NCBI GenBank assembly: GCA_946614095.1
Contig: CAMOGG010000002.1
Span: forward strand, 1-60,645
From: an uncultured Bacillales bacterium
GTDB lineage: Bacteria; Bacillota_I; Bacilli_A; RF39; UBA660
Direction of reading: 5' to 3'
DNA: 60,645 nucleotides
Part shown: positions 5,096-25,704 of the stretch, piece by piece
How positions within the stretch are numbered: position 1 is the stretch's first letter
Layout: each line of letters opens with the position of its first letter
Program-made: the position numbers and the translations under genes
The notes under the pieces: generated by a model
Told to the model about the DNA's origin: nothing
What the model saw: only the letters and a program-made list of their open reading frames with translations
Databases searched by the model: none

Positions 5096-6865
5096 ATGAA
5101 AAAGAGAATTAAAGTTATTTTGACTTTAGTGATTTTGGGTTGTATGGTTTGGTTTTTAATTGTTTCTCCATTGATACAGTTTCATCGTAATGAGAAGAGT
5201 GTTGAAAAAGCAGGGAAAAGATATTTTGACTTGAATCAAAATGAGCTTCCAACTGGAGAGAGGGTTAAAACGTTGAGTTTAAAAAAACTTTATTTTGAAA
5301 AACTTTTGGAAAATGATATTTTTGCTCCTTATACTCGAAAAACTTGTTCTTTAGAAAAAAGTTGGGTTAAAGTCAAAAGAGAAGAAAATGATTATCAATA
5401 TTATGTATATTTGGATTGTGGTATCTTAAAATCTTCTGTTGATGCGAAGGGACCTGTTATTCGGTTAAAAGGTAAGGAGAAAATAACTCTAGGGGTTGGT
5501 GATCAATATGAAGATCCTGGTATTTCTAGTGTGGTTGATGATGTGGATGGAAAACTAAATACTTCCGATGTAAATATTAAAGGAAAAGTAGATACATCAA
5601 AAGTTGGGGTTTATGAAATTACTTATTCTGCTTATGATAAACTTAGTAATGCTGGAGTAGCTACTCGTACTGTTTCTGTTGTTAAAAAGGCTTATAATAC
5701 TTTTAAAAAGGATTTAGGCAAAGAAACAAATTATAAAGGTATGCCTACGAATAATTATGTAAGACTTTCTAATATGGTTTTTGCGGTTTATGGTATTGAT
5801 GAAAACAAGAATATAGTTTTAGTGGCAGATAAAGATGTTGCGAATGTCAGCTATAATAAGATTAATGATTGGTTGAAATATTACTATCAGCATTTTACTA
5901 AGAAATCAAAATCTATGATTGTTCCAAGTAAGTATTGTAATATGAAAGTTGATGAGAGTAACCTTAATACAACAGAGTGTACTTCTTATACCAAAGAGAG
6001 AAATGTTTATATTCCTTCTATTGTTGAAGTAAATAAAGCAGCGGGTGATTATGATAGCTTCATGAAACCAGTTACTATGTCTTGGCTTTCTACGAGTCAA
6101 GATTCCAAAAAAGCATATTTAACCCGTAATGTTTTTTATGGAAGTGATTATGAAAAAAGTTTTGTGGCTTATGATATAACAGAAAACTATGGTGTTCGAC
6201 CAATGCTTACTATAAAAGGTAGTACTTTAATTACTGGTGGTGATGGTAGTTATGCAAATCCATATACTTTTGGAGATTCTGAGCCTGCTAAAGGATCATC
6301 CTTATTGAATACAAGAGATACAGGAGAATATATTTCAGATGGTTCTTTCTTATGGAGAATTGTTGATGTTATGAAAGATGGTACTACGAAAGCTATTAGT
6401 GAAGAAGTTATTACTCTTGCAGAGGCAAAACAAGATTCTCTTTCTGAAAGAATTACCTATAATCCAAAAGATAAGACTAGTGTTGGTTATTATATTAATA
6501 ATAAAGTTAGTGAGTTTGTTGATACTTCTAAACTTGTTAATCATCAAATAGAAGTTCCAATTTATCAAAATAAGATTATTTATGGTGAAGAGTCTACAAC
6601 AAAAAAATATAACGTTGTTTTGTCAGCACCAAATATGTTTGAAATGTTTAGCGCAGCACCTTCTTCTACAAGTAGTTCTTATTGGTTTTTAAATACTTCT
6701 TTAGAAAATGGAGTGGGGGCGGCTTTAACTGAAATAGGTGTTCCTTATAATGATAAGATAGGTCCTTATACTACTTTATCGGTGCGTGTTGTTGGGTATT
6801 TTAAAGATAGTACAATTATTAGTACTGGAAAAGGTACTGAGAATTCTCCTTATGTTGTTAAGTAG
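5096..6865 (+). CDS. Type-A surface protein 1: TM anchor, pilin-head-like domain, DUF5011-type Ig domain, two beta-rich LWRI/GVRP-type domains
   Basis: AGGAGG RBS at 5083-5088. N-terminal TM helix. Head segment ending YYVYLDCG. GPVIRLKG...YEDPG...GVYEITYSAYD matches the DUF5011 pattern. Domain ends are GGDGSYANPYTFG and GKGTENSPYVVK. Confidence 0.75.
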   Translation: MKKRIKVILTLVILGCMVWFLIVSPLIQFHRNEKSVEKAGKRYFDLNQNELPTGERVKTLSLKKLYFEKLLENDIFAPYTRKTCSLEKSWVKVKREENDYQYYVYLDCGILKSSVDAKGPVIRLKGKEKITLGVGDQYEDPGISSVVDDVDGKLNTSDVNIKGKVDTSKVGVYEITYSAYDKLSNAGVATRTVSVVKKAYNTFKKDLGKETNYKGMPTNNYVRLSNMVFAVYGIDENKNIVLVADKDVANVSYNKINDWLKYYYQHFTKKSKSMIVPSKYCNMKVDESNLNTTECTSYTKERNVYIPSIVEVNKAAGDYDSFMKPVTMSWLSTSQDSKKAYLTRNVFYGSDYEKSFVAYDITENYGVRPMLTIKGSTLITGGDGSYANPYTFGDSEPAKGSSLLNTRDTGEYISDGSFLWRIVDVMKDGTTKAISEEVITLAEAKQDSLSERITYNPKDKTSVGYYINNKVSEFVDTSKLVNHQIEVPIYQNKIIYGEESTTKKYNVVLSAPNMFEMFSAAPSSTSSSYWFLNTSLENGVGAALTEIGVPYNDKIGPYTTLSVRVVGYFKDSTIISTGKGTENSPYVVK

Positions 6866-6873
6866 GTGTTGGT

Positions 6874-7671
6874 ATGCTTGTGAATAAAAAACATAAAGAA
6901 TTATTCGGTATTATTCTACTTCTTTTTATTGCTATTATTGCTGTTCTTTATGAAATATGTCGTCCATATTATAATAGTGTTAATCGTGTTTCTAATATTT
7001 TAGAAGAAAAGAAAAAAGATACGAAAGATTATCATACGATTGGGTGGCTTAAAGTGCAGGGAACAACTTTAGATTTACCGATTTTGACTATTAATCATAA
7101 AGATCCGCCTGTTAATAGAGAACATTTTTCTTGGGTATTAAATGAAGATGATCAATATCATAATGTTATGAATATACTAGGTCATAATATATTTAATTTA
7201 TCATCTTCTCCTAAATTACATTTGGAGCATTATCAAAGATTTGAAGATTTGTTATCTTTTGTTTATTATGATTTTGCAAAGGAGAATAAATATATTCAAT
7301 TAACTATTGATAATAAAAATTATATTTATAAAATATTTTCTGTTGGTTTTATTCCATCTTATGAAGTATCTCTTTTTCCAACTGGCGAATATTCTAGGGA
7401 GCAATTATCTAAACAAATTTCATGGTTGAAGGATATTTCCGTTTATGACTATGATTTGGATGTTCAGAATGATGATCATATTATTTCACTGGTTACTTGT
7501 ACAAGGCTATTTGGTTATAATGATATGTCGAAAGACTTTATTGTTAGTGGTAGATTGGTTCATTCTGGTGAACTTATTTCAGATTATAAAGTTACTAAAA
7601 ATAATCAATATAAAGAAATAAATAAAATATTGAAAGGTGATGGTGAGAATGAAGATGCTTCTTCAACATAA
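6874..7671 (+). CDS. Class-B-sortase-like transpeptidase 1
   Basis: N-terminal TM helix. IGWLKVQGTTLDLPIL, ILGHN (His), ISLVTCT (Cys) and SGRLV (Arg) are collinear with the S. aureus SrtB motifs. Confidence 0.75.
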   Translation: MLVNKKHKELFGIILLLFIAIIAVLYEICRPYYNSVNRVSNILEEKKKDTKDYHTIGWLKVQGTTLDLPILTINHKDPPVNREHFSWVLNEDDQYHNVMNILGHNIFNLSSSPKLHLEHYQRFEDLLSFVYYDFAKENKYIQLTIDNKNYIYKIFSVGFIPSYEVSLFPTGEYSREQLSKQISWLKDISVYDYDLDVQNDDHIISLVTCTRLFGYNDMSKDFIVSGRLVHSGELISDYKVTKNNQYKEINKILKGDGENEDASST

Positions 7672-10600
7672 AATAAAGATTTTGTTGATTGTACTTTTTG
7701 TTTTTTCAGTTTTCTTTGTTGCATCTCTTTCTTTTGACGGTAATTCTATTACTAAGAAGAAGAGTGAAAAATTAGAAGGAGAAACTGTAACAACAAGTAA
7801 AAAGGTAAAATGTGAAAATTATACTGTTCAAGAAGCAGAAGATAAGAAGAAAAGTGGTTTTGATTTTTTTGGTCGTTATGGTACGGAAGGTGAATTTTCT
7901 AAAAATGGTGATTTTACCATTTCAATTTCCCCAAGTACTTCAAAATCAAACAATCCAGTTGGTTCTGATTTTGAATTGTATGTTGAAAAAATTTCCATTG
8001 TTAGTTTGTTAGAACAAAATGATGATTTAGTAGACTCAATGGAGAAGTATACTGTATATAATTCTAAAGATTATGGACCAGATGATTATCGATTGTCTAA
8101 AAAGAAAAGTATCACGATTAGTAGATCTGAAGTAGAATCACTTGCATCTTCAGTAACAAGTGCTGATGCTGATACTGTTTTAATTACTTTGAAAGCAGTT
8201 AAGGCTAATTCTGATCCAATGTGTGAAGGAACTGTTTTTTATAATGTAGAGGTTGGTCTTGATTCTTTTTCTAGTGCTGTTTCTGAACCGATTGAAGGGG
8301 TTGAAACAGTAGGAGATTATTATATTGCTCCTGTTTCTATTGATTGTAATAATCCGAAAGATGACTTTGAACAAAGTTATTGTGTAGGAGAGAAAGGTTA
8401 CTTTAATCCTGGAACAAAAAAAACTGTAACAGTTAAAGATAAGAGTAGCGATTTAAAAAGAAATGGTGGTACTTTTAAGAATATTCGTTATGCTTTAAAA
8501 TGTGATGCTCATTCGATTGTACCAAGTAATAGTTCTATTGCGAAAGATAGTGCTAGTGAAAGTAAATACTATGTTAATGATGAAATATTAAAGGCTTCTC
8601 ATACAACTAGTGAGTCTTTTGGTAACTATACGTATCATTATGCACCAGGTTTGCCTACAGAAACGGTTCCAATTAAGGTTGATACCACCTGTACTGAAAC
8701 ATTGCATGTTCAGTATGGACCACCTGTATCTGTAAAAGCTGGAATTTGTTTTGAATATAATGTTAAAGTTACTAGTACAGTAGTTTGTAAAGCTTCTAAG
8801 GTACCTGCACCTAAGGCTGCCACTTATTGTAATCCTATTCCAAAATGTTATCATAAAACCGGTAATTGGACAGGAGCCAATGCTGGACCTAATGATTCTT
8901 TTGATATGTGTATTCAGCAATGTGATGGTGGAAAGTATTCTGACTATTGTAGTCAAAAATGTTATAGTTCTATTTATACTGTTGGAGAAAAGAGAACTTC
9001 TAGTATTCTTGATGATTATAGTGTTCAACAGATAAAATCTTATCGTAAAGATAAAAATGGTCGTCAAAGAATTACTACTAGCTCTAATGTTGATAAAGCT
9101 AATGCTTTAATTGATAGTATTAATAAATGTTTATCGTTGGAAGAGAAAAGTACTTTAAAAAATTCACATTATACAATGACTAATTATCCGAATGTTGGAA
9201 CTTCTGGTGGAATAAATTTCTATGGATGTTATTATTGGGATGAGTCTGCTAAAGAAATTAAGTGGGCTTCTGGTATTGAAGGTAATATTTTAGAAAATTC
9301 TCATGGTAAAGTTGGTAATGCAAGATATGCTCCTGGAAGATGGTATGGTGTTCATCGTAAAACTTCTAATTACGCTGGATATTCTTCAAATGATGGTTTC
9401 ATGCGTAAAGCTTTTTCATCTGGTTTATGTACTGCTTCCTGTAGATGGGATGGATGTTCTCAGACAGAATATTGGAATCCTGCTCAGGCTAAAGCAGATT
9501 ATGATGAGAATATGAAAGTCTTTAATGATGCAAAAACAGCGGCTGAGAAGGCAAGCACTTGTTCAGAGAAAACAACAGAATTTACTATGAAAGTTACGGA
9601 GTATGGTACTTATATGAAATCTGCTGATACGTTAACCTCAAAGCCTTCTGGACAAAATATTGACGAAAAAGAAAAATTATTAGGGAAAAGATATGTTAGA
9701 GATTATTCTAAGTGTTATCAAACCTCTGATATTAATAAAAATGAGATGTATCAAACGGTTTGGGGATTCCCTGGTGTTTGGCAAGATGCAAAGAGTATGA
9801 AAATTTCATTTGTACAAGTTCCTGATTCTGTTTTCATTTCTAATAAATTTTGTCTTCCGTTAGATGCTAAAACAGTTAATGAGAAATGGTGGACTTATTA
9901 CTATACTGCTCAATATGAGCATAGTACAACGAGTTTAACGTCTCAAACTTATCAAGATAAATGTATGAAAACTACAACGTGTACTAATTGGGTACATGAA
10001 AATGATATCGATTGGGATAAAGATATTACATATAATATTACAGGTTCTACTGATAATTTTGGTCATTTTGGATGGAACTTGGATGTTAGTTGTTTCTATG
10101 CATATTCTACGAATCCAACAACCGGTAAGGACTGTAAACCTTCTATTGAGTGTGATTCTTCTAGTGGATATACAGTGCGAAGTGTTGATTTATCCGATAT
10201 GTTTCCTAGTCCAGATGGTGAAACTCATTCTGCTGATACAACCGGAAGGGATACTGGATTTAACTGGACAAAGTATGCAACAAATGTTAAAAAAGATCCT
10301 AATTATGTTAGTGATCCTATTGCCTATTTGAAAGAAACTCAAAAAAATGAAATTTTATTGCGTAAACGAGGAAAATCTACTTATACGAATGAAGCAGAAT
10401 TGGATTATCGTATTTATTTATCTCGTGAGGATTTACGTAATATTAAAAAATATGTTACTAGTGATTCATTCTCTTATACGGATTATGGCTCTCGTGGTAA
10501 ATTTATTCCAAATGGAAGCGTTTTAAGCTATCAAAGTAACGTATTACGTTCTACTACTTCGAATGGACTTTCAGTATTTAATTCTGATAATATATTAGTA

Positions 10601-10675
10601 GATGAAAGTCTGTTGAAATGTAATAATGTAGATAATGGTAAGTGTGCACAATTTGTTAGTGAGGTGAAAGAATAA
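7649..10675 (+). CDS. Giant cysteine-rich secreted protein C1 (unknown family)
   Basis: Signal/TM segment KILLIVLFVFSVFFVASLS. I count 29 Cys. Paralogous to 15524-18238. The start overlaps the end of the sortase gene; ATG 7649 was chosen after the AAAGG RBS. Confidence 0.8.
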   Translation: MKMLLQHKIKILLIVLFVFSVFFVASLSFDGNSITKKKSEKLEGETVTTSKKVKCENYTVQEAEDKKKSGFDFFGRYGTEGEFSKNGDFTISISPSTSKSNNPVGSDFELYVEKISIVSLLEQNDDLVDSMEKYTVYNSKDYGPDDYRLSKKKSITISRSEVESLASSVTSADADTVLITLKAVKANSDPMCEGTVFYNVEVGLDSFSSAVSEPIEGVETVGDYYIAPVSIDCNNPKDDFEQSYCVGEKGYFNPGTKKTVTVKDKSSDLKRNGGTFKNIRYALKCDAHSIVPSNSSIAKDSASESKYYVNDEILKASHTTSESFGNYTYHYAPGLPTETVPIKVDTTCTETLHVQYGPPVSVKAGICFEYNVKVTSTVVCKASKVPAPKAATYCNPIPKCYHKTGNWTGANAGPNDSFDMCIQQCDGGKYSDYCSQKCYSSIYTVGEKRTSSILDDYSVQQIKSYRKDKNGRQRITTSSNVDKANALIDSINKCLSLEEKSTLKNSHYTMTNYPNVGTSGGINFYGCYYWDESAKEIKWASGIEGNILENSHGKVGNARYAPGRWYGVHRKTSNYAGYSSNDGFMRKAFSSGLCTASCRWDGCSQTEYWNPAQAKADYDENMKVFNDAKTAAEKASTCSEKTTEFTMKVTEYGTYMKSADTLTSKPSGQNIDEKEKLLGKRYVRDYSKCYQTSDINKNEMYQTVWGFPGVWQDAKSMKISFVQVPDSVFISNKFCLPLDAKTVNEKWWTYYYTAQYEHSTTSLTSQTYQDKCMKTTTCTNWVHENDIDWDKDITYNITGSTDNFGHFGWNLDVSCFYAYSTNPTTGKDCKPSIECDSSSGYTVRSVDLSDMFPSPDGETHSADTTGRDTGFNWTKYATNVKKDPNYVSDPIAYLKETQKNEILLRKRGKSTYTNEAELDYRIYLSREDLRNIKKYVTSDSFSYTDYGSRGKFIPNGSVLSYQSNVLRSTTSNGLSVFNSDNILVDESLLKCNNVDNGKCAQFVSEVKE

Positions 10676-10678: not shown

Positions 10679-11206
10679 ATGAATAAAGGTATGTTAACAA
10701 TTGGGATTATTTTACTTTCTATTATTTCTTTGCTATTACTTAATGTTTTAAATAACTATATGACTGGTGGAGAGTTAGATTATTATCTTGTCAAAGAAAC
10801 TGCTGATGCTGCTATGTTAGATGCAGTTGATAATACATATTCTGCTGTAACTTGTGGATTGCCTCGAATTGATAAAGAAAAATTTGTGGAAAGTTTCGTT
10901 TTACGTTTTGGTAGTAGTATTGATGGCAGTAGAGGTTATGAATTGAGCTTCTATGATATTAATGAAGTACCTCCTAAAGTAAGTGTTCGAGTAGATTCAT
11001 TGACTGTCTTGTCATTTAATGTAACCGGTGGAGAGGAAAAGGATACAAAACAAGCGGCTGATATCACAACAGAATATAGTGCTATTTTAGAGAGTAATTA
11101 TATTTCAGATATTACAGTAGAAGAAGGATTAAGAAGTTCAAATCCTACTGATAAATCTTATGATATGTGTCGTCCTCTTGATGAGATTTCAAAAGAAAGT
11201 AAGTGA
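10679..11206 (+). CDS. Small N-terminally anchored protein D1 (pseudopilin-like?)
   Basis: Starts MNKGMLTIGIILLSIISLLL, identical over 20 residues to D2. GAGGTGA RBS lies inside the end of C1. Two Cys. Confidence 0.75.
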   Translation: MNKGMLTIGIILLSIISLLLLNVLNNYMTGGELDYYLVKETADAAMLDAVDNTYSAVTCGLPRIDKEKFVESFVLRFGSSIDGSRGYELSFYDINEVPPKVSVRVDSLTVLSFNVTGGEEKDTKQAADITTEYSAILESNYISDITVEEGLRSSNPTDKSYDMCRPLDEISKESK

Positions 11207-11228: not shown

Positions 11229-11313
11229 TTTTAATTATTTTTTATTTTATCTTTTAAAAAAATTGAAATTGTTGTATACTTAATAATAGTAATAATAGGG
11301 GAGTGTGATTTAT

Positions 11314-12867
11314 ATGATTTTTCGTAAACCATATGCATTCTTAATTAAAAATTTTAGAAAAATACATATTGTTTTGTTATTAATTAGTTTATATTGTGCT
11401 TATCAATTATTTGATGTTAGTCGCTTTGTAAGTGATTTTATGCAATATGGTACTTATGATATTTTTCAAAATCCTATTAGTAAACATATTACTTGGTTAT
11501 TAAGACTTTCTACACTTTTGTTGGCTGCAGGTAGTGCTGCGTTATTAATTTTATTACGATATAAAAAGAAACCTTGGAAAGTATATCTCATTCCAATTAT
11601 TGAATATTTGGTTTTATTCTTTGTGTTGGGAATGGTTAGTAGTTTCTTTAATGCTTATTCTAATACGGTAGAGACAACAGATTTACGATTGTCTAGGGAT
11701 TTATTGATGATTTTCATTATTGCTCAATTGCCTGCTATTGGAATTTTCATCATGCGTATTCTAAATCTAGATATTAAAAAGTTTAATTTTAACTCTGATG
11801 AAGAATTTTTACAGTTATCAGAGCAAGACCGTGAAGAATTTGAAGTTAATTTTAATTTTGATATTAATTCGGTTAAACGATTTTCTAGACGTGCTTTTCG
11901 TAATATTCGCTATTTCTATATTGAGCATAAATTAATTTGTAATACTTTAGTAATACTTCTTGTCGTTTTTACTAGTTTCCAAATTTATCGCTCTATTTTT
12001 ATTACCCATAAGAGTTATTCTGAGGGTGATGATTATATGATTAATGGATATACCTTTCAAGTTCATAATAGCTACTATACTGATAAGGATTATAGTGGTA
12101 CTGTGATTTCTAAGAAAAGTAATTTTGTTGTTGTAGATTTGGATGTTGTTAATCATGCTGCACGAAGAAGTTTACGAATTGATAATTTCCATTTGAAAAA
12201 TGGAGTAGAGGATTATACCACTACTAGAAAAACTTATGCAACAGAGTTTCAAGATTTAGGAGAAACTTATGATAGTGTAAAAGAATTACAGCAAAATGAA
12301 AAATTTCATTTTATTATTGTTTTTAAAGTAGATAAAGATTTGAAATATAATCGGTTTCAATTATATTATCAAGAAAAAGATTATTTAAGAAAGATTAAGT
12401 TGAATGTAAAAGATGTTAGTGAGATTCAAGATGAAAAAGTGATAACGATAGGAGATAGTATGAATTTTTCTCTTCGAGGAAAGAAAGAATCTATTTCTAT
12501 TGATGATTATGAGTTTCTTGATTCTGTTGATTATTTAAGTCGTATTTGTGGAGTTGTTAATTGTTTTACGGAACCACAAGTGTTTACTGCCCCAAGTGAT
12601 CAAAAAGTCTTAAAAATTGAATTTTCTTCTATTCTTTTTGAGGGGAAAGACATGGTTGACTTTTCAAATGAATATGGTAAAATTATTTATATAGATAATA
12701 GTAATGAGGATAATGAAGAGGTTGAACTTAACTTTAAGTATCCATTTTCTAAAGTAGCTACTGGTAAATACCTTTATACTTTGGTTCCACGTGAACTAGA
12801 AGAGTCTTCTAGTTTGAAATTAGTGTATGTTGTGCGAAATAAAAAATATGTTTATCAGTTAGTATAG
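11314..12867 (+). CDS. Polytopic membrane protein with extracellular DUF4352-like beta domain
   Basis: About 4 N-terminal TM helices, a charged loop and a further TM helix. These are followed by NFVVVDLDVVNHAARR...FHLKNG...FHFIIVFKVDKD, a DUF4352-type pattern. AGGGGAG RBS, ATG at 11314. Confidence 0.6.
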   Translation: MIFRKPYAFLIKNFRKIHIVLLLISLYCAYQLFDVSRFVSDFMQYGTYDIFQNPISKHITWLLRLSTLLLAAGSAALLILLRYKKKPWKVYLIPIIEYLVLFFVLGMVSSFFNAYSNTVETTDLRLSRDLLMIFIIAQLPAIGIFIMRILNLDIKKFNFNSDEEFLQLSEQDREEFEVNFNFDINSVKRFSRRAFRNIRYFYIEHKLICNTLVILLVVFTSFQIYRSIFITHKSYSEGDDYMINGYTFQVHNSYYTDKDYSGTVISKKSNFVVVDLDVVNHAARRSLRIDNFHLKNGVEDYTTTRKTYATEFQDLGETYDSVKELQQNEKFHFIIVFKVDKDLKYNRFQLYYQEKDYLRKIKLNVKDVSEIQDEKVITIGDSMNFSLRGKKESISIDDYEFLDSVDYLSRICGVVNCFTEPQVFTAPSDQKVLKIEFSSILFEGKDMVDFSNEYGKIIYIDNSNEDNEEVELNFKYPFSKVATGKYLYTLVPRELEESSSLKLVYVVRNKKYVYQLV

Positions 12868-12877: not shown

Positions 12878-14683
12878 ATGATGAAGAAAGATAATAAGTT
12901 GAAGTTTATTGTTACAGTTTTAATATGTTTTGCATTTGCATATTTTTTGATTATTTATCCAATTCAGGTTTTTCGTGGAAATGAGAATAAATTAAAGGAT
13001 GCTGCTGCTCGTTATTTTGAATTAAATCCAAGCCAGTTGCCTACTGGTGAGCGGATTAAAACTGTTGCTTTAAAAGAGCTTTATCATGAAAAGTTTTTAG
13101 AAACGGATATTTATGCTCCGTATAGTAAGAAGACATGTTCTGTCGAAAATAGTTGGGTAAAGGTTCGTAAAGAAAATGAAGCTTATCGTTATTATGTTTA
13201 CTTAGATTGTGGTGGTGCACTTCATTCTTTTGTGGATCATAAGGGACCAGAAATTACCTTGAATGGAAAAAAATATATTTCAATTGGTTTGGGAGAGGAT
13301 TTTACGGATCCTGGTGTTAATCGAGTAGTAGATGCAAAAGATGGAAAAATTGATTTATCAAATGTCATTGTTAAAGGAAAGGTTGATAATCAAAAAGTCG
13401 GTACTTATGAAATTACTTATACAGCTTTTGATCAATTGAGTAATAAAACAGTTGTGACAAGAAAGGTAGAAGTTGTTCAAAAATTATATGATACAATTGC
13501 TACTAAACTAAATGGTACCCGTAATTTTGTGGGAAATCCAGATAATCACTATGTTCAATTATCTAATATGTTATTTAGAGTATTTGGTGTTAATGAGGAT
13601 AATGATGTAATTCTTGTTGCAGATGAAGATGTTGCAAATGTTAATTATTCAAAATTAGATAAATGGTTAGATTATTATTATCAACATCTTAATTCCAATG
13701 CTCAAAAAATGATTGTGGACTCTCAATTTTGTAATGTAAGACTTTCTGAAAATAATTTAGATACTACTCAGTGCAATGCTTATACAAAGAAGAGAAAGAT
13801 TTATATTCCTTCTGTTGTTGAGGTTAATAAAGCAGCTGCAGGGGATGAGAATTTTATGAAGCCTGCTACAATGTCTTGGATTGCTAATTCTAAAACAGAT
13901 AATCAAGCTTATGTGACTCGTGATATTTTCTTTGATCAAGACTATGGAAAAAGTTTTCTACCATATAGTGTGTATGATAATTATGGGGTTCGTCCTATGT
14001 TAGTTATTAAAGGATCTTCCTTAATTACTGATGGTGATGGTACTCGTACAAATCCTTATCTTTTTGGAGATTCTAAGAAAGGGGCAAGTGGTTCATTATT
14101 AAGTAAGAGAAATACTGGTGAGTATGTTACTTCTGGAGGTATGTTATGGAGAATTATTGATACCTTTGAAGATGGAACTGTAAAAGTTGTAAGTGTTTCA
14201 ACTTTATCTAGCCCAAGTTCTGTAGCTAGTTGCTATCCTGATCCTGATAATTCAAAAATTCTTTATAATCCAGAAGATAAAATGAGTATTGGTTATTATA
14301 TTAATAACAAAAGTTCTGATTATATTGATTCTAAGGATTTTGTTAACCATGTTATTGAAGTTCCTATTTATAAGAATAAAATAATATTTGGAGAAGAGGT
14401 CAAAACAGTTAAATATAATGTGATGTTTTCGGCTCCTAATATGTATGAGATGTTTAGTGCCCAGGTTCGTAACCTAGTGGGATATTACCCTCATTCTTAT
14501 TGGCTAGTAAATAGTTCTAATGGAAATCGAATTGCTGGAGCTATTACAGATATTGGGGTTCCAATTAATGAGAAAATTGAAGAATACTATGCTTCTAATG
14601 TTAGAGTGGTTGGTTTTATGAAAAAAGGTCTTACAATCAGTAGTGGAGATGGTACTGAGATTCTGCCTTATAAGGTAAAGTAG
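12878..14683 (+). CDS. Type-A surface protein 2 (paralog of 5096-6865)
   Basis: Collinear with A1 throughout: LPTGERIKT, YYVYLDCG, a DUF5011-type segment (GTYEITYTAFD), DGDGTRTNPYLFG and the end GDGTEILPYKVK. Confidence 0.75.
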   Translation: MMKKDNKLKFIVTVLICFAFAYFLIIYPIQVFRGNENKLKDAAARYFELNPSQLPTGERIKTVALKELYHEKFLETDIYAPYSKKTCSVENSWVKVRKENEAYRYYVYLDCGGALHSFVDHKGPEITLNGKKYISIGLGEDFTDPGVNRVVDAKDGKIDLSNVIVKGKVDNQKVGTYEITYTAFDQLSNKTVVTRKVEVVQKLYDTIATKLNGTRNFVGNPDNHYVQLSNMLFRVFGVNEDNDVILVADEDVANVNYSKLDKWLDYYYQHLNSNAQKMIVDSQFCNVRLSENNLDTTQCNAYTKKRKIYIPSVVEVNKAAAGDENFMKPATMSWIANSKTDNQAYVTRDIFFDQDYGKSFLPYSVYDNYGVRPMLVIKGSSLITDGDGTRTNPYLFGDSKKGASGSLLSKRNTGEYVTSGGMLWRIIDTFEDGTVKVVSVSTLSSPSSVASCYPDPDNSKILYNPEDKMSIGYYINNKSSDYIDSKDFVNHVIEVPIYKNKIIFGEEVKTVKYNVMFSAPNMYEMFSAQVRNLVGYYPHSYWLVNSSNGNRIAGAITDIGVPINEKIEEYYASNVRVVGFMKKGLTISSGDGTEILPYKVK

Positions 14684-14700: not shown

Positions 14701-15546
14701 GTGAATGTTAAGGAAAAAAAGAAATCAATGAAAAGGCAAAGAAAACGGGATAGGACTGTTCTGTTATTAACTATTTCTATATTATGTATTGTTTTTTTAG
14801 GATTAGCATTGTGTAGGAGTCTCATTGCTCCTAAAGAGTATTATCAACTAGAGTCTAGAGTTTCTAATGTTGCTCTTTCTCAAGATAGTAATACTTCTGA
14901 TTACCAAACTGTAGGTTGGTTGAAGGTACAGGGTACTAATCTTGATTTGCCAATTTTAGCTGGAATTAGTGATGATATTAATTTTCCTGTAAAGAAGGAA
15001 AAATATGTTTGGACAGTAAGTAATGATGATAAATTTCATAATAAGATGAATATTATGGGACATAACATTTATAACTTATCTTCTAGTCCAAAAATAGAAT
15101 CTGAAGATTTTCATCGTTTTGAGGAATTGATGTCTTTCGTCTATTATGATTTTGCGAAAGAGAATAAATATATTCAATTGACAATTGATGGAAAAGATTA
15201 TCTTTATAAAATATTCTCTGTAGACTTTATTAATGCAGTTGATATTGATATGATTACAGGAGATGATAGCCTTAATGAAGATATTGGTTATCAAATTGAT
15301 TTATTTAAAGATAATACATTGTATGATTATGATGTAGATGTTAATGAAAATGATAAAATAATATCTTTGATTACTTGTACTAGGTTTTTTGGTACTGATA
15401 AATTTGTTGATTTTTTAGTAAATGGACGTTTGGTTCGTGAAGGAGAAAAGATTGATGATTATTCAGTGAAGAAAAATGATAATTATACAAAAGTTGAAAA
15501 TGTTATAAAAGGAGATGATAGCAATGAATCAAATAGTTCGATGTAG
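14701..15546 (+). CDS. Class-B-sortase-like transpeptidase 2
   Basis: VGWLKVQGTNLDLPIL, IMGHN, ISLITCT and NGRLV. GTG start 8 nt after the AAAGGAG RBS. Confidence 0.75.
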   Translation: MNVKEKKKSMKRQRKRDRTVLLLTISILCIVFLGLALCRSLIAPKEYYQLESRVSNVALSQDSNTSDYQTVGWLKVQGTNLDLPILAGISDDINFPVKKEKYVWTVSNDDKFHNKMNIMGHNIYNLSSSPKIESEDFHRFEELMSFVYYDFAKENKYIQLTIDGKDYLYKIFSVDFINAVDIDMITGDDSLNEDIGYQIDLFKDNTLYDYDVDVNENDKIISLITCTRFFGTDKFVDFLVNGRLVREGEKIDDYSVKKNDNYTKVENVIKGDDSNESNSSM

Positions 15547-18238
15547 AAGAATAATTGGGGTTTTTATTCTAATATTTGCTGTTTCTATCTTTGTTTTCTT
15601 ACCTAGTGAAGTATTTGCAGCTACGAAGAAAGAATGTAAGAATTATCTGACAAATACAAAGTTTATTTCTAGATATAATGCTAATATTACTACCACTGGT
15701 TCAAAAAATAAATATAAGATTTCTATTGAGCCTACTTCTTCTGATAAAAAGTTAGAAAAAGCTCTTAGAAAAGTTATTTTTAAAGTAATTAAAATTAATG
15801 ATAAAAATCAAGATGGAAGTAAAACTGTTTCTTATGGTAAACCTCTAACAATCAATGGTCAATATTTTACCAATGATCTTGGTGAAAAAGAGATGAGTAT
15901 TGTTTTAGAGTCTACTGAAAAAAGTGTCGATCCTAAATGTACTGGTACTGTAACATTTACTCTTGGAGTTACCACAGGTGGAGATGAGATTGTTTTAGAA
16001 GAGGATATTCCTACTATTGAAGATCAGTTTGGTGATGTTCAAGGAAAATTAATTGATTGTACAAAAACTCAGACTGAGGCTTTTGAAAAAGCTTTTTGTG
16101 AAACTAAAAATGCTGCTTTGAAAGCTGATCCTGATGGTACAAAAGGTTTGAATTATTCTGGAAAGTTTAATGGTCATAAGAATTTTAAAGATGTAGTTAA
16201 GGGAGAGAATGGAGAACTTGGTTATAAAAAGCTACAATGTAGTGCAACTAAGTTTGAAATTACTAATGATTATTATGTAAATAAGACACATCTTTATGGT
16301 TATGGTGAATATACTGAAAATTTTGGTAATTATACATATCATTATTCTCCAGGAGTTGTAACACAAGGTGAAAATATTAACTGTAAGGTTAGATGTGAGG
16401 AAGCTGTTGTTGTGGAATATGGTCCTCCGGTTGCTTCTAAAGCTGGTTTGTGTTTTGAATATAAAGTTAAAGTTACAAGTAGAGTTAGTTGTAATATGAT
16501 TGAAAAACCAAAAACTCCTAAAACAACGAAGCATTATTGTACTCCAACGCCTATTTGTTTAACTAGTGCGGGTACTTATACCAATCAAGGTGGTCCTAGT
16601 GAAGAGTTTGATTCTTGCGTTAAAACATGTGATGGTGGTAAATATACTGATAAATGTACGAAGAAATGTTATCAAAAAGTTTATGGTGATTCTGCTACAA
16701 AAACAACTACACGTGGAAAAGAATACTTAACAGAACAAATTAAGTATGGAGCAGATGCTTTTAGCCTTCAAGCGTGTAAAAATGAGAGTGGATTCCATGG
16801 ATGTTATTATCGTGCGGGTAATTCTATTCTTTGGGAAGGTGTTTCAAGTTCAACTCCTGGTAGATGGTACTTAGTTTCTCCTCATAAAGATTTATCAGCT
16901 TATGGAGTATTTGGTAATGGTATTTATCGTCATATTTATGGTGAAGGTAACTATTGTCATGATAATTGTTGGTGGTCTGGATGTTCTGATTCAAATGTTT
17001 ATTTAAATCCTGGTATATCAAAAAAAGATTATGAGAATAATAAGGAATTGTATGACACTGCTGTTGCACAATGTAAAGTTGAAGCATCTTGTACAACAAC
17101 TACAGCTGATTTTACAATTTCAGTAAACTATAAAAATGGTAAAAATGAAGTTAAGACTTTAGACTTCCCTTATACAACTAAGAAAGATAAAATGACATCT
17201 AAAGGATCTGATGAGAAAATAGAAGATACTAACAAAAATAATGATACAACCATCCTATGTGCAGATAGAGATCCTTTAACTGGTAAATGTAATGATGATA
17301 AAGGAAGAGGATGTTACTCTACAAAAGATGCTAAGAGAATTTATATGACAGAGTGGAGCTTCCCAGGTTCTTGGATTAATAATAAATCTGGAGAAATATC
17401 TTATGTTCCTAAAGATGATAAGAGTTGGCAAACTATGAAAAATAAATTCTGTATTCCATTAGATGCACAAGATGTTAATGTTAAATGGTGGAATTATCGT
17501 CAATTAAAAAATCCAAATTATAGTCAATCCTCAGCTTCATCAAGTGCTTATGTTGAAAAATGTGTACAGAATGGCTATGGTATTCAGAATATTAGTACAT
17601 TTAGTAATAGTGATGTAGAGGATTGGAATATTAATGCGAAAACTTCGAATTTTGGTTATTTCGGATGGAATATTCATGTATCATGTTTCTATGCATTAAA
17701 TACAGGAAAACGTACAACTACATCTACTAATACGAATTCTTCTGTTCCTAAAGAATGTTTATCTGATGCTTCTTATCGAATTCGTTCTGTAGATTTAGCT
17801 AATTTATTCCCAGCTACTGATGGATCTGTATCTGAATCAAGAGCTCCTGGATTTAACTGGAGTGAATATGCAACTAAGACAAAAGCTAATAAAGATCCGG
17901 CTAATGATTATTACGAAATTAATCCTGCTAAGTATGCTACATTTGTTGCTTCAAAAGCACAAGCAATTTATTCTGATGAGTACTTAGATTATTCAATTGA
18001 TTTAACTCGTGATATGATTGCTAAATTAAGAAAAGATAGTAAATCTAATAATTACTCTACGTATGCTAATGATGATGAGTATTTTACAAAAAATTATGTT
18101 ATTAATTATCGTAGTCCATTATTTAAAAATGGTGGAGCACTAAGTAGTAGTTCTAAGTATCCTACACTTGAGTCATTGAAATGTAATAATATGAAAAATT
18201 ATAATAGTGGTTGTGAAGAATTTGGAGGTAATGATTAA
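15524..18238 (+). CDS. Giant cysteine-rich secreted protein C2 (paralog of C1)
   Basis: Signal peptide ending SEVFA|ATKK. I count 32 Cys. Blocks shared with C1 include GNYTYHY, YGPPV..KAG.CFEY.VKVTS, CDGGKY, PGRWY, KFC.PLDA, NFG.FGWN..VSCFYA, RSVDL, GFNW and LKCNN. Confidence 0.8.
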   Translation: MNQIVRCRRIIGVFILIFAVSIFVFLPSEVFAATKKECKNYLTNTKFISRYNANITTTGSKNKYKISIEPTSSDKKLEKALRKVIFKVIKINDKNQDGSKTVSYGKPLTINGQYFTNDLGEKEMSIVLESTEKSVDPKCTGTVTFTLGVTTGGDEIVLEEDIPTIEDQFGDVQGKLIDCTKTQTEAFEKAFCETKNAALKADPDGTKGLNYSGKFNGHKNFKDVVKGENGELGYKKLQCSATKFEITNDYYVNKTHLYGYGEYTENFGNYTYHYSPGVVTQGENINCKVRCEEAVVVEYGPPVASKAGLCFEYKVKVTSRVSCNMIEKPKTPKTTKHYCTPTPICLTSAGTYTNQGGPSEEFDSCVKTCDGGKYTDKCTKKCYQKVYGDSATKTTTRGKEYLTEQIKYGADAFSLQACKNESGFHGCYYRAGNSILWEGVSSSTPGRWYLVSPHKDLSAYGVFGNGIYRHIYGEGNYCHDNCWWSGCSDSNVYLNPGISKKDYENNKELYDTAVAQCKVEASCTTTTADFTISVNYKNGKNEVKTLDFPYTTKKDKMTSKGSDEKIEDTNKNNDTTILCADRDPLTGKCNDDKGRGCYSTKDAKRIYMTEWSFPGSWINNKSGEISYVPKDDKSWQTMKNKFCIPLDAQDVNVKWWNYRQLKNPNYSQSSASSSAYVEKCVQNGYGIQNISTFSNSDVEDWNINAKTSNFGYFGWNIHVSCFYALNTGKRTTTSTNTNSSVPKECLSDASYRIRSVDLANLFPATDGSVSESRAPGFNWSEYATKTKANKDPANDYYEINPAKYATFVASKAQAIYSDEYLDYSIDLTRDMIAKLRKDSKSNNYSTYANDDEYFTKNYVINYRSPLFKNGGALSSSSKYPTLESLKCNNMKNYNSGCEEFGGND

Positions 18239-18762
18239 TGAATAAAGGTATGTTAACAATTGGAATTATTTTACTTAGTATCATTTCTTTGTTACTAATC
18301 AATGTATTAACAAATTATTCTACAGGAAGTGAGTTAGATTATTATCTTGTAAAAGAAACTACTGACGCTGCTATGGAAGACTCTATTGATAAAGTTTTCT
18401 TAAGAGAATGTGGATTACATAGAATTGATAAAGAAAGATTCGTTGAGAACTTTCTTTATCGGTTCGCTAATAGTGTGGATTCTACTCGTGATTATCATAT
18501 TAAATTTTATGATATTAATGAAGTTCCACCTAAAGTTAGTGTTAAAATTGATTCTTTGACTGTTTTATCTTTTAATGTAACAGGTGGAGATGAAAAAAAT
18601 ACTAAACAAGCTGCTGATATTACGACAAGTTATGATGCTATATTGGAAACAAATTCTTTGTCTGATTTATCAGTAGAGGAAGGACTTAAAGAGTCAAGTA
18701 AAAATTCAGTAACTTATGATCAATGTCGATCATTATTAGAATTAAAAGGGAAAGGAGAATAA
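18238..18762 (+). CDS. Small N-terminally anchored protein D2
   Basis: The ATG overlaps the C2 stop (TAATG). Roughly two-thirds identical to D1 by eye. Confidence 0.75.
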   Translation: MNKGMLTIGIILLSIISLLLINVLTNYSTGSELDYYLVKETTDAAMEDSIDKVFLRECGLHRIDKERFVENFLYRFANSVDSTRDYHIKFYDINEVPPKVSVKIDSLTVLSFNVTGGDEKNTKQAADITTSYDAILETNSLSDLSVEEGLKESSKNSVTYDQCRSLLELKGKGE

Positions 18763-18764
18763 AA

Positions 18765-19574: not shown

Positions 19575-19592
19575 TAAAAGGATGTGAGTTGA

Positions 19593-21263: not shown

Positions 21264-21278
21264 AAAAGGGGTGATGTT

Positions 21279-22984: not shown

Positions 22985-22991
22985 AAAATGA

Positions 22992-23020
22992 TTGATATTT
23001 TGTAATGTATTTGGTATAAT
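22992..23020 (+). promoter_or_regulatory. Near-consensus SigA promoter for the pilin gene
   Basis: TTGATA (22992-22997), 17-nt spacer, then TGgTATAAT (TATAAT at 23015-23020). Confidence 0.7.
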
Positions 23021-23055
23021 AATTTTGTATATATTAGAAAGGATGGGATGAATGA

Positions 23056-23217
23056 ATGAAAGCTGCTACAGGTGAATTAAACTTAACTGTTATTACTTTA
23101 ATTGCTATTGCTGCAGTTGTTGGTTTCTTTTTGTCAGTTATGTGGCCAAAGATTCAAGAAAGTATCAATACTCAATGGGATGATATTTCAACTCAAGATG
23201 GAAGACCTGGAAATTAA
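23056..23217 (+). CDS. 53-aa Flp/Tad-type major pilin candidate (absent from the ORF track, <60 aa)
   Basis: My translation is MKAATGELNLTVITLIAIAAVVGFFLSVMWPKIQESINTQWDDISTQDGRPGN. It has a short polar leader ending in Gly, a 22-aa hydrophobic helix and a short tail. GAAAGGATGGG RBS and its own strong promoter. Confidence 0.7.
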   Translation: MKAATGELNLTVITLIAIAAVVGFFLSVMWPKIQESINTQWDDISTQDGRPGN

Positions 23218-23268
23218 TAATTTTATTTTGAATTAAAAATTATTTTATAAAAGGTGGGAGGATTTGCT

Positions 23269-23721: not shown

Positions 23722-23731
23722 GGTGATTTAG

Positions 23732-25619: not shown

Positions 25620-25631
25620 TAGAAAAATTAA

Positions 25632-25660: not shown

Positions 25661-25704
25661 GTTCTGTTATACTTATTATGATAAAATATAATTGGAGTGG
25701 TTTT

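What the first reader, a model, noticed from the sequence alone, without database searches (positions are those of the whole stretch)
7649..10675. Giant cysteine-rich secreted proteins with no family I can recognise (paralog at 15524-18238)
Seen in sequence: C1 is about 1008 aa from ATG 7649 and has 29 Cys by my count. C2 is about 904 aa and has 32 Cys. Both have an N-terminal signal/anchor. Neither has an LPXTG motif or a C-terminal TM helix.

They share sharply conserved blocks separated by variable stretches: GNYTYHY, YGPPV(S/A)xKAG(I/L)CFEY(N/K)VKVTS, CDGGKY(S/T)D, PGRWY, KFC(L/I)PLDA...KWW, NFG(H/Y)FGWN..VSCFYA, RSVDL..(M/L)FP, GFNW..YAT and a C-terminal LKCNN.

Established knowledge: exported proteins of Bacillota are generally Cys-poor, so about 30 Cys implies an extensive disulfide framework.

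Inference: a new fold family that could serve as a pilus-tip or T4SS-associated adhesin, a receptor-binding protein or a delivered effector.
Basis: partly seen in the sequence, partly recalled or inferred. Interest (0 to 1): 0.72.

Follow-up and report, generated by a model that had tools for sequence, protein, structure and literature searches.

The report
Cysteine-rich pilus-operon exoprotein, unknown family
Two real, very large, cysteine-rich exported proteins belong to an uncharacterised family with no recognisable domain or fold; in hundreds of uncultured gut bacteria (order RF39 where the taxonomy could be checked) it always sits beside a sortase-like enzyme at the head of a pilus and DNA/protein-transfer gene cluster, so it is most likely the variable surface or adhesin part of that machine.

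Summary
C1 (7649-10675) is 1008 aa with 29 Cys. C2 (15524-18238) is 904 aa with 32 Cys. They are 30% identical (E 5e-102) and share every quoted motif.

Each has one N-terminal Sec signal peptide, no later TM segment and no LPXTG. Pfam, NCBIfam and PDB sequence and profile searches gave nothing. Foldseek with an AlphaFold model (pLDDT 74.5) against PDB and BFVD gave nothing either.

The family is large: 723 clusters at 50% identity and 171 loci in species-representative genomes. All are gut or rumen MAGs; Ca. Faecimonas (genus CAG-877) is assigned to order RF39. About 22 Cys positions are conserved.

The context is invariant: membrane protein, ~600-aa Ig-like protein, class-B-sortase-like enzyme whose stop overlaps the Cys-rich gene's start, Cys-rich protein, DUF5411, then a Tad/Flp-type pilus cluster fused to a mycoplasma-ICE-like T4SS. 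It lies next to greA, with no relaxase.

The Cys-rich gene evolves fastest in the operon, with median identity 36% against 79-84% for TadA, TadB and TadC. It duplicates as a cassette with its Ig-like partner.

Best reading, inferred and not shown: the variable, disulfide-stabilised target-recognition or adhesin subunit of this apparatus. This is a new family of a known kind. Function is untested.

The parts
7649..10675 (+). C1: extra, divergent paralogue of the Cys-rich exoprotein. 1008 aa, 29 Cys, Sec signal peptide at about aa 1-27.
   Evidence: No Pfam, NCBIfam or PDB hit.
15524..18238 (+). C2: canonical copy of the Cys-rich exoprotein, in the position next to DUF5411 and RcpC seen in nearly all species. 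904 aa, 32 Cys.
   Evidence: AF2 model. No hit.
15524..15622 (+). C2 signal peptide, aa 1-33, ending VFA|AT. The family consensus has a near-invariant Ala at the -1 position.
15623..16243 (+). C2 variable N-terminal region, aa 34-240. It includes a predicted Ig-like beta-sandwich at about aa 53-151. Column conservation is about 0.2-0.3.
   Evidence: Foldseek gave only about 100-column Ig-like sandwich matches, with which part of the model they cover not reported.
16244..17863 (+). C2 conserved Cys-rich core, aa 241-780. It contains GNYTYHY, YGPPV..CFEYKVKVTS, CDGGKY, PGRWY, KFCxPLDA..WW, NFGYFGWN..CFYA, RSVDL and GFNW. Predicted 23-residue beta-hairpin strands run aa 253-299.
16616..16669 (+). 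Twin CX3C element in C2: C365-x3-C369 and C378-x3-C382, lying in two predicted helices. All four Cys are conserved at 94% or above.
   Evidence: Disulfide pairing is an inference.
18182..18190 (+). C-terminal CNN motif in C2, aa 887-889. The two Asn are conserved at 90% or above. Across the family the motif lies 1-38 aa from the C-terminus and is followed by a variable, often acidic tail.
6874..7671 (+). Class-B-sortase-like enzyme 1, 265 aa, N-terminal TM anchor. Its stop overlaps the C1 start.
   Evidence: Pfam Sortase 1.3e-5. TIGR03064 9e-11. Family keeps GHN, TCTR and R.
14701..15546 (+). Class-B-sortase-like enzyme 2, 281 aa. Its stop overlaps the C2 start.
   Evidence: PDB SrtB 5b23, 6kyc and 1ng5, E 2.5e-10, with GHN and LITC aligned.
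5096..6865 (+). Ig-like/DUF6273 ~600-aa protein 1. N-terminal TM anchor plus a pilin-head-like domain. Cassette partner of C1.
12878..14683 (+). Ig-like/DUF6273 ~600-aa protein 2. Cassette partner of C2.
10679..11206 (+). DUF5411 protein 1, 175 aa.
   Evidence: PF17424 5.8e-38.
18238..18762 (+). DUF5411 protein 2, 174 aa. Leader MNKG followed by a hydrophobic helix. AF2 gives a 46-residue N-terminal helix plus a 3-stranded sheet, a pilin-like topology.
   Evidence: Foldseek was not significant.
11305..12867 (+). Conserved 520-aa polytopic membrane protein with a DUF4352-like ectodomain. It is the first gene of the canonical module.
18723..24217 (+). Tad/Flp-type pilus genes. CpaB/RcpC-like 18723-19574; CpaF/FlaI/VirB11-type ATPase 19593-21263; two TadB/C-sized membrane proteins 21279-22984; 53-aa Flp-like pilin 23056-23217; two TadE-like proteins 23254-24217.
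25314..37998 (+). Adjacent T4SS genes. VirB6/TrbL_4-like 26242-28497; VirB4 29408-31198 (mycoplasma ICE Mbov_0397 family, 1e-104); SpoIID-domain wall hydrolase 31215-33590; VirD4/TraG 34441-36756; DUF6273 protein 36772-37998.

Best explanation
C1 and C2 are Sec-exported, signal-peptidase-cleaved, non-pilin extracellular proteins with a probable multi-disulfide framework. I propose they form the variable, target-recognising (adhesin or receptor-binding) part of a composite Tad/Flp-type pilus plus type IV secretion apparatus. That apparatus is a conserved chromosomal feature of an uncultured gut Bacilli lineage, order RF39 where the taxonomy could be checked.

Proposed mechanism:
1. The protein crosses the membrane by the Sec pathway and folds outside the cell around about 11 conserved disulfides.
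2. Its conserved C-terminal two-thirds docks onto its cassette partners. These are the N-terminally anchored ~600-aa Ig-like protein and the pilin-like DUF5411 protein, and through them the pilus or the cell surface.
3. The hypervariable N-terminal ~240 aa, with an Ig-like sandwich, contacts the target, which could be a host surface or glycan or a partner cell.
4. The translationally coupled class-B-sortase-like enzyme processes or attaches it, possibly at the conserved C-terminal CNN motif.

What is shown: export signals, family conservation, conserved cysteines, invariant operon context, fastest evolutionary rate in the operon, and cassette duplication. What is inferred: disulfides, docking partners, pilus or tip location, adhesin role and the role of the sortase.
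For: - Export: the family shows classical signal peptides with an AxA-type site and no other TM segment.
- Context: in 83 related loci the gene has a sortase-like gene upstream in 81-82, DUF5411 downstream in 80, the Ig-like ~600-aa protein in 78, and RcpC and the ATPase in 69-70. Shortfalls are limited by contig ends. The most divergent relatives found keep the same context.
- The downstream genes are Tad-like. There is a CpaB hit. The ATPase is nearest to FlaI and CpaF. There is a 53-aa Flp-like pilin and there are TadE-like proteins with G-ended leaders.
- Evolutionary rate: median identity to the window protein is 36% for C2 and 30% for C1. For comparison it is 43% for the sortase-like enzyme, 47% for the Ig-like protein, 63% for DUF5411, 73% for Flp and 79-84% for TadA, TadB and TadC. 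The in-window paralogue pairs give 30% for C against 50, 53 and 69% for the others.
- The variability is concentrated in the N-terminal 240 aa.
- Cassette behaviour: the extra copies seen always come with an Ig-like ~600-aa gene, and usually with the sortase-like and DUF5411 genes.
- The invariant non-Cys residues are mostly Tyr, Trp, Phe, Gly, Pro and Asn, with no His. This looks structural and not catalytic.
- Translational coupling: the sortase stop overlaps the Cys-rich gene's start in the window and in L001 and L003.
- Analogy: DUF5411 was independently noted in CpaF/PilC-type operons of gut Clostridia that also carry an internalin-like protein (PMC9523054).
- No match in plasmid or phage collections.
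Against: - There is no experimental or structural evidence for pilus association. Only gene context supports it.
- There is no detectable similarity to any adhesin domain, to PilY1 or to TadG.
- The pilin-like nature of DUF5411 rests on topology only; Foldseek was not significant.
- No recognisable sortase sorting signal is present, so the sortase link is speculative.
- A universally present gene with a strongly conserved 500-aa core could equally be a structural machine part.
- Fast evolution is also expected for any surface-exposed antigen.
Confidence: 0.45

Rival explanations
1. A structural envelope component of the machine and not an adhesin. It would be a rigid, disulfide-braced extracellular scaffold that guides the Tad-like pilus or the T4SS channel through the peptidoglycan layer of a monoderm cell. 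In that sense it would substitute functionally for the secretin or outer-membrane complex.
For: The gene is present, usually in single copy, in essentially every locus, at a fixed position at the head of the operon. It has a large conserved core with about 22 conserved Cys and long predicted beta-ribbons. RF39 is mostly predicted to keep a peptidoglycan wall (PMC10868615). The T4SS carries its own SpoIID-domain wall hydrolase.
Against: It is the fastest-evolving gene of the operon, whereas the machine parts TadA, TadB, TadC and RcpC are 70-84% conserved. It has a hypervariable N-terminus. It is duplicated as an interchangeable cassette. It has no membrane anchor or wall-binding domain.
Confidence: 0.17
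2. A free-standing surface protein that the adjacent class-B-like sortase attaches covalently to the cell wall through a non-canonical C-terminal signal (CNN or G[VI]NN plus a short tail). It would act as a general adhesin or antigenic coat, independent of the pilus and T4SS, and would merely be co-transcribed with them.
For: The sortase-like enzyme keeps His, Cys and Arg and aligns to SrtB structures. Its gene overlaps the start of the Cys-rich gene. There is a near-invariant NN motif 1-38 aa from the C-terminus with a variable tail. No canonical sortase substrate exists anywhere in the window or in 85 loci.
Against: There is no LPXTG- or NPQTN-type motif, no hydrophobic stop-transfer segment and no positively charged tail, which known sortase substrates need. 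The strict linkage to DUF5411, RcpC and the ATPase in all lineages argues for a shared function.
Confidence: 0.15
3. A secreted toxin or effector: a soluble disulfide-rich exoprotein released to act on host or competitor cells.
For: It has a cleavable signal peptide and no anchor. It is Cys-rich like many secreted toxins. It has long beta-hairpins. The family diverges rapidly.
Against: There is no similarity to any toxin family or fold. The variable part is N-terminal and the C-terminal part is conserved, which is the opposite of polymorphic toxins. The downstream gene is highly conserved and not immunity-like. A Sec signal is not what T4SS substrates recruited through a coupling protein carry. 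The invariant residues look structural.
Confidence: 0.08

Closest known systems
PilY1/PilC-type non-pilin tip adhesins of type IV pili (comparison from my own knowledge of the family)
   Same: Large protein of about 1000 aa. Ordinary Sec signal peptide and not a prepilin leader. Encoded inside the pilus cluster next to pilin-like genes. Variable N-terminal part and conserved C-terminal part.
   Different: No PilY1/Neisseria_PilC beta-propeller or vWA domain was detected by Pfam or NCBIfam. No Foldseek match. About 30 Cys. Coupled to a sortase-like gene. The host system is Tad-like in a monoderm.
TadG/CpaL-type large accessory proteins of Tad pili (from my own knowledge)
   Same: A large accessory protein encoded with a Tad/Flp cluster and thought to link the pilus to a surface or anchor.
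   Different: TadG has a TadE-like N-terminal hydrophobic pseudopilin segment, with or without a vWA domain. C1 and C2 have a cleavable AxA signal peptide and give no Tad or TadE Pfam hit. In architecture the neighbouring ~600-aa Ig-like protein, with its N-terminal anchor, resembles TadG more than C1 or C2 do.
LPXTG surface adhesins of Gram-positive conjugation systems and sortase-assembled pili, for example PrgB-type proteins or tip pilins (from my own knowledge)
   Same: An exported large protein encoded with a T4SS and next to a sortase homologue. A plausible role in cell-cell contact.
   Different: No LPXTG-like motif, no C-terminal hydrophobic segment and no charged tail. No Cna-B, Ig-isopeptide or adhesin Pfam domains.
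CpaF/PilC/DUF5411 'predicted secretion-related operon' of Roseburia, Ruminococcus and Eubacterium (PMC9523054)
   Same: It shares DUF5411, a CpaF-type ATPase and GspF-like membrane proteins. It also carries a large putative adhesin (internalin-like), in a gut Gram-positive organism.
   Different: That operon was described in Clostridia. No Cys-rich family member, sortase-like gene or fused T4SS was reported there. I could not inspect those loci directly.
Twin CX3C / CHCH-type disulfide-stapled helical hairpins (from my own knowledge)
   Same: C365-x3-C369 and C378-x3-C382 lie in two consecutive predicted helices.
   Different: This is a resemblance of pattern only. There is no sequence or fold match, it covers about 25 residues of a 900-aa protein, and the pairing is untested.

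Membership tests
Sortase-anchored LPXTG (cell-wall sorting signal) proteins | C-terminal LPXTG, NPQTN or SPXTG-type motif | tested here: not met
   The regex scan found only a non-conserved NPTTG at aa 822 of C1, which C2 lacks at the aligned site. The family consensus shows no such motif.
Sortase-anchored LPXTG (cell-wall sorting signal) proteins | Hydrophobic segment plus a positively charged tail after the motif | tested here: not met
   There is no hydrophobic segment beyond the signal peptide in 63 of 63 members. The sorting-signal scan of the window and 85 loci was negative.
Sortase-anchored LPXTG (cell-wall sorting signal) proteins | N-terminal Sec signal peptide | tested here: met
PilY1/PilC tip adhesins | C-terminal PilY1/Neisseria_PilC beta-propeller domain | tested here: not met
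   No Pfam or NCBIfam hit in C1, C2 or 45 homologues. No propeller appears among the Foldseek hits.
PilY1/PilC tip adhesins | Physical association with minor pilins at the pilus tip | not testable with these tools
   Only gene adjacency to DUF5411 and the TadE-like genes is available.
TadE/TadF/TadG pseudopilin-like proteins | N-terminal TadE-like hydrophobic segment with a G-ended prepilin leader | tested here: not met
   The N-termini are classical Sec signal peptides with AxA sites. There is no Pfam TadE or Tad hit.
Type IV pilins | Class III signal peptide (G|FxxxE) and a pilin fold | tested here: not met
   There is no N_methyl motif. For contrast, the 1078-aa protein at 48141-51377 has one.
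T4SS-translocated effectors | Cytoplasmic substrate recruited by the VirD4 coupling protein, with no Sec signal | tested here: not met
   A cleavable Sec signal peptide is present in 62 of 63 members. Translocation itself is not testable here.
Polymorphic toxins | Conserved N-terminal part, variable C-terminal toxin domain and a variable immunity gene downstream | tested here: not met
   The variable part is N-terminal. The downstream DUF5411 protein is 63-82% conserved.
Any Pfam-A, NCBIfam or PDB family | Significant profile or structure match | tested here: not met
   The best match was an Ig-like sandwich of about 100 columns at E 0.07.
The Cys-rich exoprotein family defined here (unnamed) | Length 820-1250 aa, signal peptide, about 22 conserved Cys, core motifs, and position between the sortase-like gene and DUF5411 | tested here: met
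   Both C1 and C2 meet these.

The most novel reading that the evidence does not exclude
The module would be a hybrid of the two Gram-positive pilus paradigms. A class-B-like sortase would use a non-canonical C-terminal signal (CNN plus a short tail, with no membrane segment) to join a disulfide-knotted, hypervariable recognition protein covalently to a Tad/Flp-type (type IVc) filament or its pilin-like partners.

That tip complex would select the partner cell for a domesticated, relaxase-less, mycoplasma-ICE-like T4SS. This would give the genome-reduced, auxotrophic RF39 bacteria a dedicated cell-to-cell contact and transfer organelle, for DNA or nutrient acquisition or for an epibiotic lifestyle.
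Probability: 0.08. Interest if true: 0.88.

Novelty: new variant of a known kind. Interest (0 to 1): 0.6.

Why it matters
RF39 is a prevalent, never-cultured order of gut bacteria with reduced genomes and many auxotrophies (PMC12306168, PMC7301438). How its members attach to or depend on hosts or other microbes is unknown.

This family marks the most variable part of a conserved, chromosomally fixed pilus-plus-T4SS locus that no paper in the searched library was found to describe. The family has at least 723 clusters at 50% identity, no annotation and no recognisable fold.

If it is the specificity determinant, it would offer:
- a handle for predicting partner or host range;
- an antigen or marker for enrichment and cultivation;
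- a test case for oxidative folding of a protein with about 30 Cys in an anaerobic Firmicute;
- a candidate non-canonical sortase substrate.

If it turns out to be only a structural part, it still fills a gap in how Tad-type and T4SS machines cross a Gram-positive wall.

Tried and rejected
Searches that found nothing:
- Pfam, NCBIfam, PDB sequence and PDB profile searches on C1, C2 and the family.
- Foldseek of the C2 model against PDB and BFVD. There was no hit at E <= 0.001, only Ig-like sandwich fragments.
- Foldseek of the DUF5411 model, run to prove a pilin fold. It was not significant, so the question stays inconclusive.
- Plasmid and phage collections.
- A scan for canonical sorting signals in all ORFs of the window and 85 loci.
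- A promoter and terminator scan of 3.9-23.4 kb. Counts were at the chance level, apart from a good TTGATA-17-TATAAT site before the Flp-like gene.
- Literature searches for RF39 with Tad, T4SS or pili. I found no description of this locus or family.

Linkage test that failed: I tested for a thioredoxin or Dsb-like gene as a general neighbour. One lies beside the locus only in one sub-lineage (L084, L085, L087) and not generally.

Readings considered and rejected:
- Spore-coat or exosporium Cys-rich protein: the Sec signal and the pilus operon argue against it.
- S-layer protein: there is no wall-binding domain.
- Polymorphic toxin: the variability has the wrong polarity.
- Internal duplication of the core: motif pairs such as CFEY/CFYA and PGRWY/PGSWI occur in a different order, and I did not pursue this further.

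Full report
**1. The observation**

The two ORFs are as described. From ATG 7649 the product is 1008 aa with 29 Cys. From ATG 15524 it is 904 aa with 32 Cys. The two proteins align end to end apart from the N-terminal ~180 aa, at 30.5% identity over 880 aa, E 4.6e-102.

Each has a single hydrophobic segment at the N-terminus and none elsewhere. The same holds for 62 of 63 homologues. There is no LPXTG-type motif conserved between them. An AGGTGA ribosome-binding site lies 8 nt upstream of ATG 7649. A public gene call begins two codons later (P0001, 1006 aa).

The window is about 29% G+C and nearly all genes are on the + strand.

**2. No recognisable family or fold**

All of these searches were negative:
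- Pfam-A on both proteins and on 45 family members scanned individually
- NCBIfam
- PDB sequences searched with each protein
- PDB searched with a 63-sequence profile; the best hit was plectin at E 0.64

An AlphaFold2 model of C2 built on the 63-sequence alignment has mean pLDDT 74.5 and pTM 0.58. It predicts, in order:
- a signal helix;
- an N-terminal beta-sandwich at about aa 53-151;
- unusually long beta-hairpin strands at aa 253-275 and 278-299 (pLDDT above 90);
- two short helices at aa 360-387 that carry a twin CX3C pattern;
- a disordered variable insert at aa 389-410;
- a long helix at aa 496-519;
- further beta-rich regions up to about aa 725;
- a less confident C-terminal part.

Foldseek against the PDB and BFVD gave no hit at E <= 0.001. 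The best were Ig-like sandwich pieces of about 100 columns. 'No family recognised' therefore stands. 'New fold' is plausible but not proven, because model confidence is moderate and AlphaFold DB was not available.

**3. The family**

A word-indexed search with the C1/C2 alignment found 65 clusters at 90% identity. All were unnamed or 'hypothetical', without Pfam domains, and 824-1103 aa long. An exhaustive HMMER search of 1.84 billion cluster representatives found 723 proteins at E <= 1e-3 and 518 at E <= 1e-30. Nearly all of the best 150 matched the profile from end to end.

Thirteen Cys are invariant and about nine more are conserved at 90% or above. Of C2's 32 Cys, 22-23 are conserved in at least 87% of members.

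The other invariant residues are mainly Tyr, Trp, Phe, Gly, Pro and Asn, with no invariant His. That pattern suggests structure more than catalysis.

Conservation is low (about 0.2-0.3) over the first 240 aa and high (0.5-0.7) in the blocks at aa 270-390, 480-540, 600-660 and 750-780.

Near the C-terminus a CNN motif, replaced by G[VI]NN in some members, is conserved at 90% or above for the two Asn. It lies 1-38 aa from the end and is followed by a variable, often acidic tail.

**4. Where it occurs**

A scan of one genome per species found 171 loci. All 80 retrieved come from gut, rumen or faecal MAGs. Their labels include Bacilli, Mollicutes, Tenericutes, 'Mycoplasma sp. CAG:877', Ca. Faecimonas and rumen 'Erysipelotrichaceae', plus a few evidently mislabelled bins.

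Ca. Faecimonas is the GTDB genus CAG-877, order RF39, family CAG-611 (PMC8035907). I infer that the family is essentially confined to RF39 or close relatives. I could verify this only for those genomes.

RF39 is described as uncultured, genome-reduced and auxotrophic (PMC12306168). It is mostly predicted to retain a peptidoglycan wall and srtA/B-type sortases (PMC10868615; PMC7301438). There is no match in the plasmid or phage collections.

**5. Genomic context**

The canonical gene order across the related loci is:
- two U32 peptidase genes, an HD protein and GreA (the housekeeping flank);
- a 520-aa polytopic membrane protein;
- a ~600-aa protein with an N-terminal anchor, a Bact_surface_Ig-like domain and DUF6273;
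- a sortase-like gene;
- the Cys-rich protein;
- DUF5411;
- CpaB/RcpC-like protein;
- a T2SSE-family ATPase;
- two TadB/C-sized membrane proteins;
- a 53-aa Flp-like pilin;
- one or two TadE-like proteins;
- a 338-aa protein and two small membrane proteins;
- VirB6/TrbL_4-like and VirB3-like proteins, and onward.

Of 83 loci, 81-82 have the sortase-like gene, 80 have DUF5411, 78 have the Ig-like protein, and 69-70 have RcpC and the ATPase. The shortfalls are at contig ends. The most divergent relatives I could find keep the same Ig, sortase, Cys-rich, DUF5411, RcpC, ATPase context (P0061, P0321, P0351). P0063 in L084 is an extra copy that keeps only its Ig-like partner, and it lies just upstream of a complete module.

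In the window the four-gene module is duplicated. C2 occupies the canonical position. C1 belongs to an extra module inserted between greA and the 520-aa membrane protein. In L084 the extra copy has only its Ig-like partner, so the Ig-like protein and the Cys-rich protein behave as a cassette pair.

The ATPase is closest to the solved FlaI and CpaF structures, then VirB11. NCBIfam gives VirB11 and the 'TadA family conjugal transfer-associated ATPase'.

The T4SS genes downstream are:
- VirB4, in the mycoplasma ICE Mbov_0397 family (1e-104);
- VirB6, Mbov_0396-like;
- a SpoIID-domain hydrolase;
- VirD4/TraG.

No relaxase or integrase was found in the 60-kb window. The conserved housekeeping flank shows that the whole locus is vertically inherited.

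**6. The partner genes**

The sortase-like proteins carry an N-terminal membrane anchor. They match Pfam Sortase (1e-5 and 3e-7) and TIGR03064 class B sortase (9e-11 and 4e-13, both below the curated cut-offs). They align to SrtB structures from C. perfringens, C. difficile and S. aureus at E down to 2.5e-10, with GHN and (L)ITC aligned. Across 86 homologues the His, the TCTR Cys and a downstream Arg are conserved.

The sortase stop codon overlaps the start of the Cys-rich gene in the window (7649 before 7671; 15524 before 15546) and in L001 and L003. This implies translational coupling. No ORF in the window or in 85 loci has a canonical sorting signal.

DUF5411 is highly conserved. There are 1218 clusters, and the best 120 are 66-82% identical to the window copy. 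It starts MNKG followed by a hydrophobic helix, resembling the G-ended leaders of the Flp-like pilin (MKAATG|ELNLTV) and the TadE-like proteins (DALGG|T.NLV). Its AF2 model (pLDDT 67) is a 46-residue N-terminal helix followed by a three-stranded sheet, which is a pilin-like topology. Foldseek gave nothing significant, so this remains inconclusive.

DUF5411 has been noted before in CpaF/PilC-type operons of gut Clostridia that also carry an internalin-like protein (PMC9523054).

**7. Evolutionary rate**

Median identity of the orthologues in the related loci to the window proteins:

| Protein | Median identity (%) |
|---|---|
| GreA | 89 |
| TadB | 84 |
| TadC | 82 |
| TadA | 79 |
| Flp-like pilin | 73 |
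| RcpC | 70 |
| DUF5411 | 63 |
| Ig-like ~600-aa protein | 47 |
| 520-aa membrane protein | 47 |
| TadE-like proteins | about 43 |
| Sortase-like enzyme | 43 |
| C2 | 36 |
| C1 | 30 |

The in-window paralogue pairs give the same ranking: DUF5411 69%, Ig-like protein 53%, sortase-like enzyme 50%, Cys-rich protein 30%. The Cys-rich protein is the fastest-evolving component of the operon.

**8. Interpretation**

The features are: Sec export with a cleavable signal; no anchor; a conserved Cys-braced core plus a hypervariable N-terminal domain; obligate placement between a sortase-like enzyme and a pilin-like protein at the head of a Tad-like/T4SS operon; cassette duplication with an Ig-like partner; and the highest divergence rate in the operon. 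Together these are best explained by an extracellular recognition or adhesin subunit of this apparatus. Functionally it would be analogous to, but not homologous with, PilY1/TadG-type accessory proteins or the surface adhesins of Gram-positive conjugation systems. I put this at about 0.45.

The alternatives are:
- a wall-spanning structural scaffold (0.17);
- a sortase-attached, pilus-independent surface protein using a non-canonical CNN signal (0.15);
- a secreted toxin or effector (0.08).

The rest is left for something unforeseen. Disulfide bonding is inferred from Cys conservation and the CX3C patterns. It has not been shown. The 'Cys-poor exoproteome' rule was demonstrated for aerobic Firmicutes (PMC2823432).

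**9. Novelty and verdict**

The family is real, large, unannotated and unrecognisable by current profile and structure libraries. I found no paper describing it or the RF39 Tad-plus-T4SS locus. In kind, a large accessory exoprotein of a pilus or secretion machine, it is not unprecedented. I therefore rate it a new variant of a known kind, with interest 0.6.

The most novel reading still open is a sortase-coupled, disulfide-knotted tip adhesin on a Tad-type filament that directs a domesticated T4SS in a genome-reduced gut lineage. I give that a probability of about 0.08.

Noticed in passing
window 18723-37998: A Tad/Flp-type pilus gene set is fused head-to-tail with a T4SS. The T4SS has a VirB4 of the mycoplasma ICE Mbov_0397 family (1e-104), an Mbov_0396-like VirB6, a SpoIID-domain hydrolase and VirD4. 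No relaxase or integrase was found in 60 kb, and the locus is syntenic next to greA in dozens of species. It looks like a domesticated chromosomal apparatus of RF39.
   Followed up: partly
window 23056-23217 (promoter-like site 22992-23020): A 53-aa Flp-like pilin ORF (MKAATG|ELNLTVITLIAIAAV...) that is very conserved across 59 loci (median identity 73%). It is preceded by the best promoter-like site of the region, TTGATA-17-TATAAT with an extended TG. No prepilin peptidase gene was seen in the window.
   Followed up: partly
window 6874-7671 and 14701-15546: Class-B-sortase-like enzymes with conserved His, Cys and Arg. No canonical substrate (LPXTG or NPQTN with a TM segment and charged tail) exists anywhere in the window or in 85 related loci. 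Their stop codons overlap the start of the Cys-rich genes.
   Followed up: partly
window 5096-6865, 12878-14683, 36772-37998, 48141-51377: The ~600-aa Ig-like proteins, the 408-aa DUF6273 protein at the end of the T4SS cluster and the 1078-aa type IV pilin-like protein share a weakly similar N-terminal domain after the hydrophobic helix. It has the pattern ...LP..L...G...C..V.V...Y.Y..YL.CG and pairwise E values of 1e-5 to 0.08. This could be a pilin-head-like domain without a canonical prepilin leader in the first three.
   Followed up: partly
window 48141-51377: A giant type IV pilin-like protein of 1078 aa and 16 Cys. It has a canonical N-methylation motif (KGFTLVELLVA) and Listeria-Bacteroides repeats, and it stands alone among housekeeping genes.
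   Followed up: no
window 58274-59491; also L084 7046-7576, L085 928-1326, L087 3526-4053: A 405-aa protein with a signal peptide, a glutaredoxin/thioredoxin-like CPHC domain and a polytopic membrane domain with Cys in two TM segments. It is a candidate extracytoplasmic thiol-disulfide system for the many Cys-containing exoproteins. In one sub-lineage a PedC-like or thioredoxin gene lies directly upstream of the module, but this is not general.
   Followed up: partly
window 19593-21263: The pilus/T4SS ATPase carries a low-complexity C-terminal tail of about 200 aa, rich in P, V, A, S and T (from about aa 350). Orthologues range from 428 to 584 aa, so this tail is variable or absent elsewhere.
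   Followed up: no
window 10679-11206 and 18238-18762: DUF5411 (PF17424) is predicted by AF2 to be a 46-residue N-terminal helix plus a three-stranded sheet with a short MNKG leader. That is pilin-like in topology although Foldseek finds no match. It may be an unrecognised minor pilin family of Gram-positive Tad-like systems.
   Followed up: partly
window 41010-43670: A sigma-70 family protein of 886 aa. Regions 2-4 lie only in the C-terminal ~380 aa, and the N-terminal extension is about 500 aa, repetitive-looking and without any Pfam match.
   Followed up: no
window 34441-36756: The VirD4/TraG coupling protein has a long C-terminal extension of about 270 aa that ends in an extremely acidic tail (DDGDDDDDDFFDDFFDN).
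   Followed up: no
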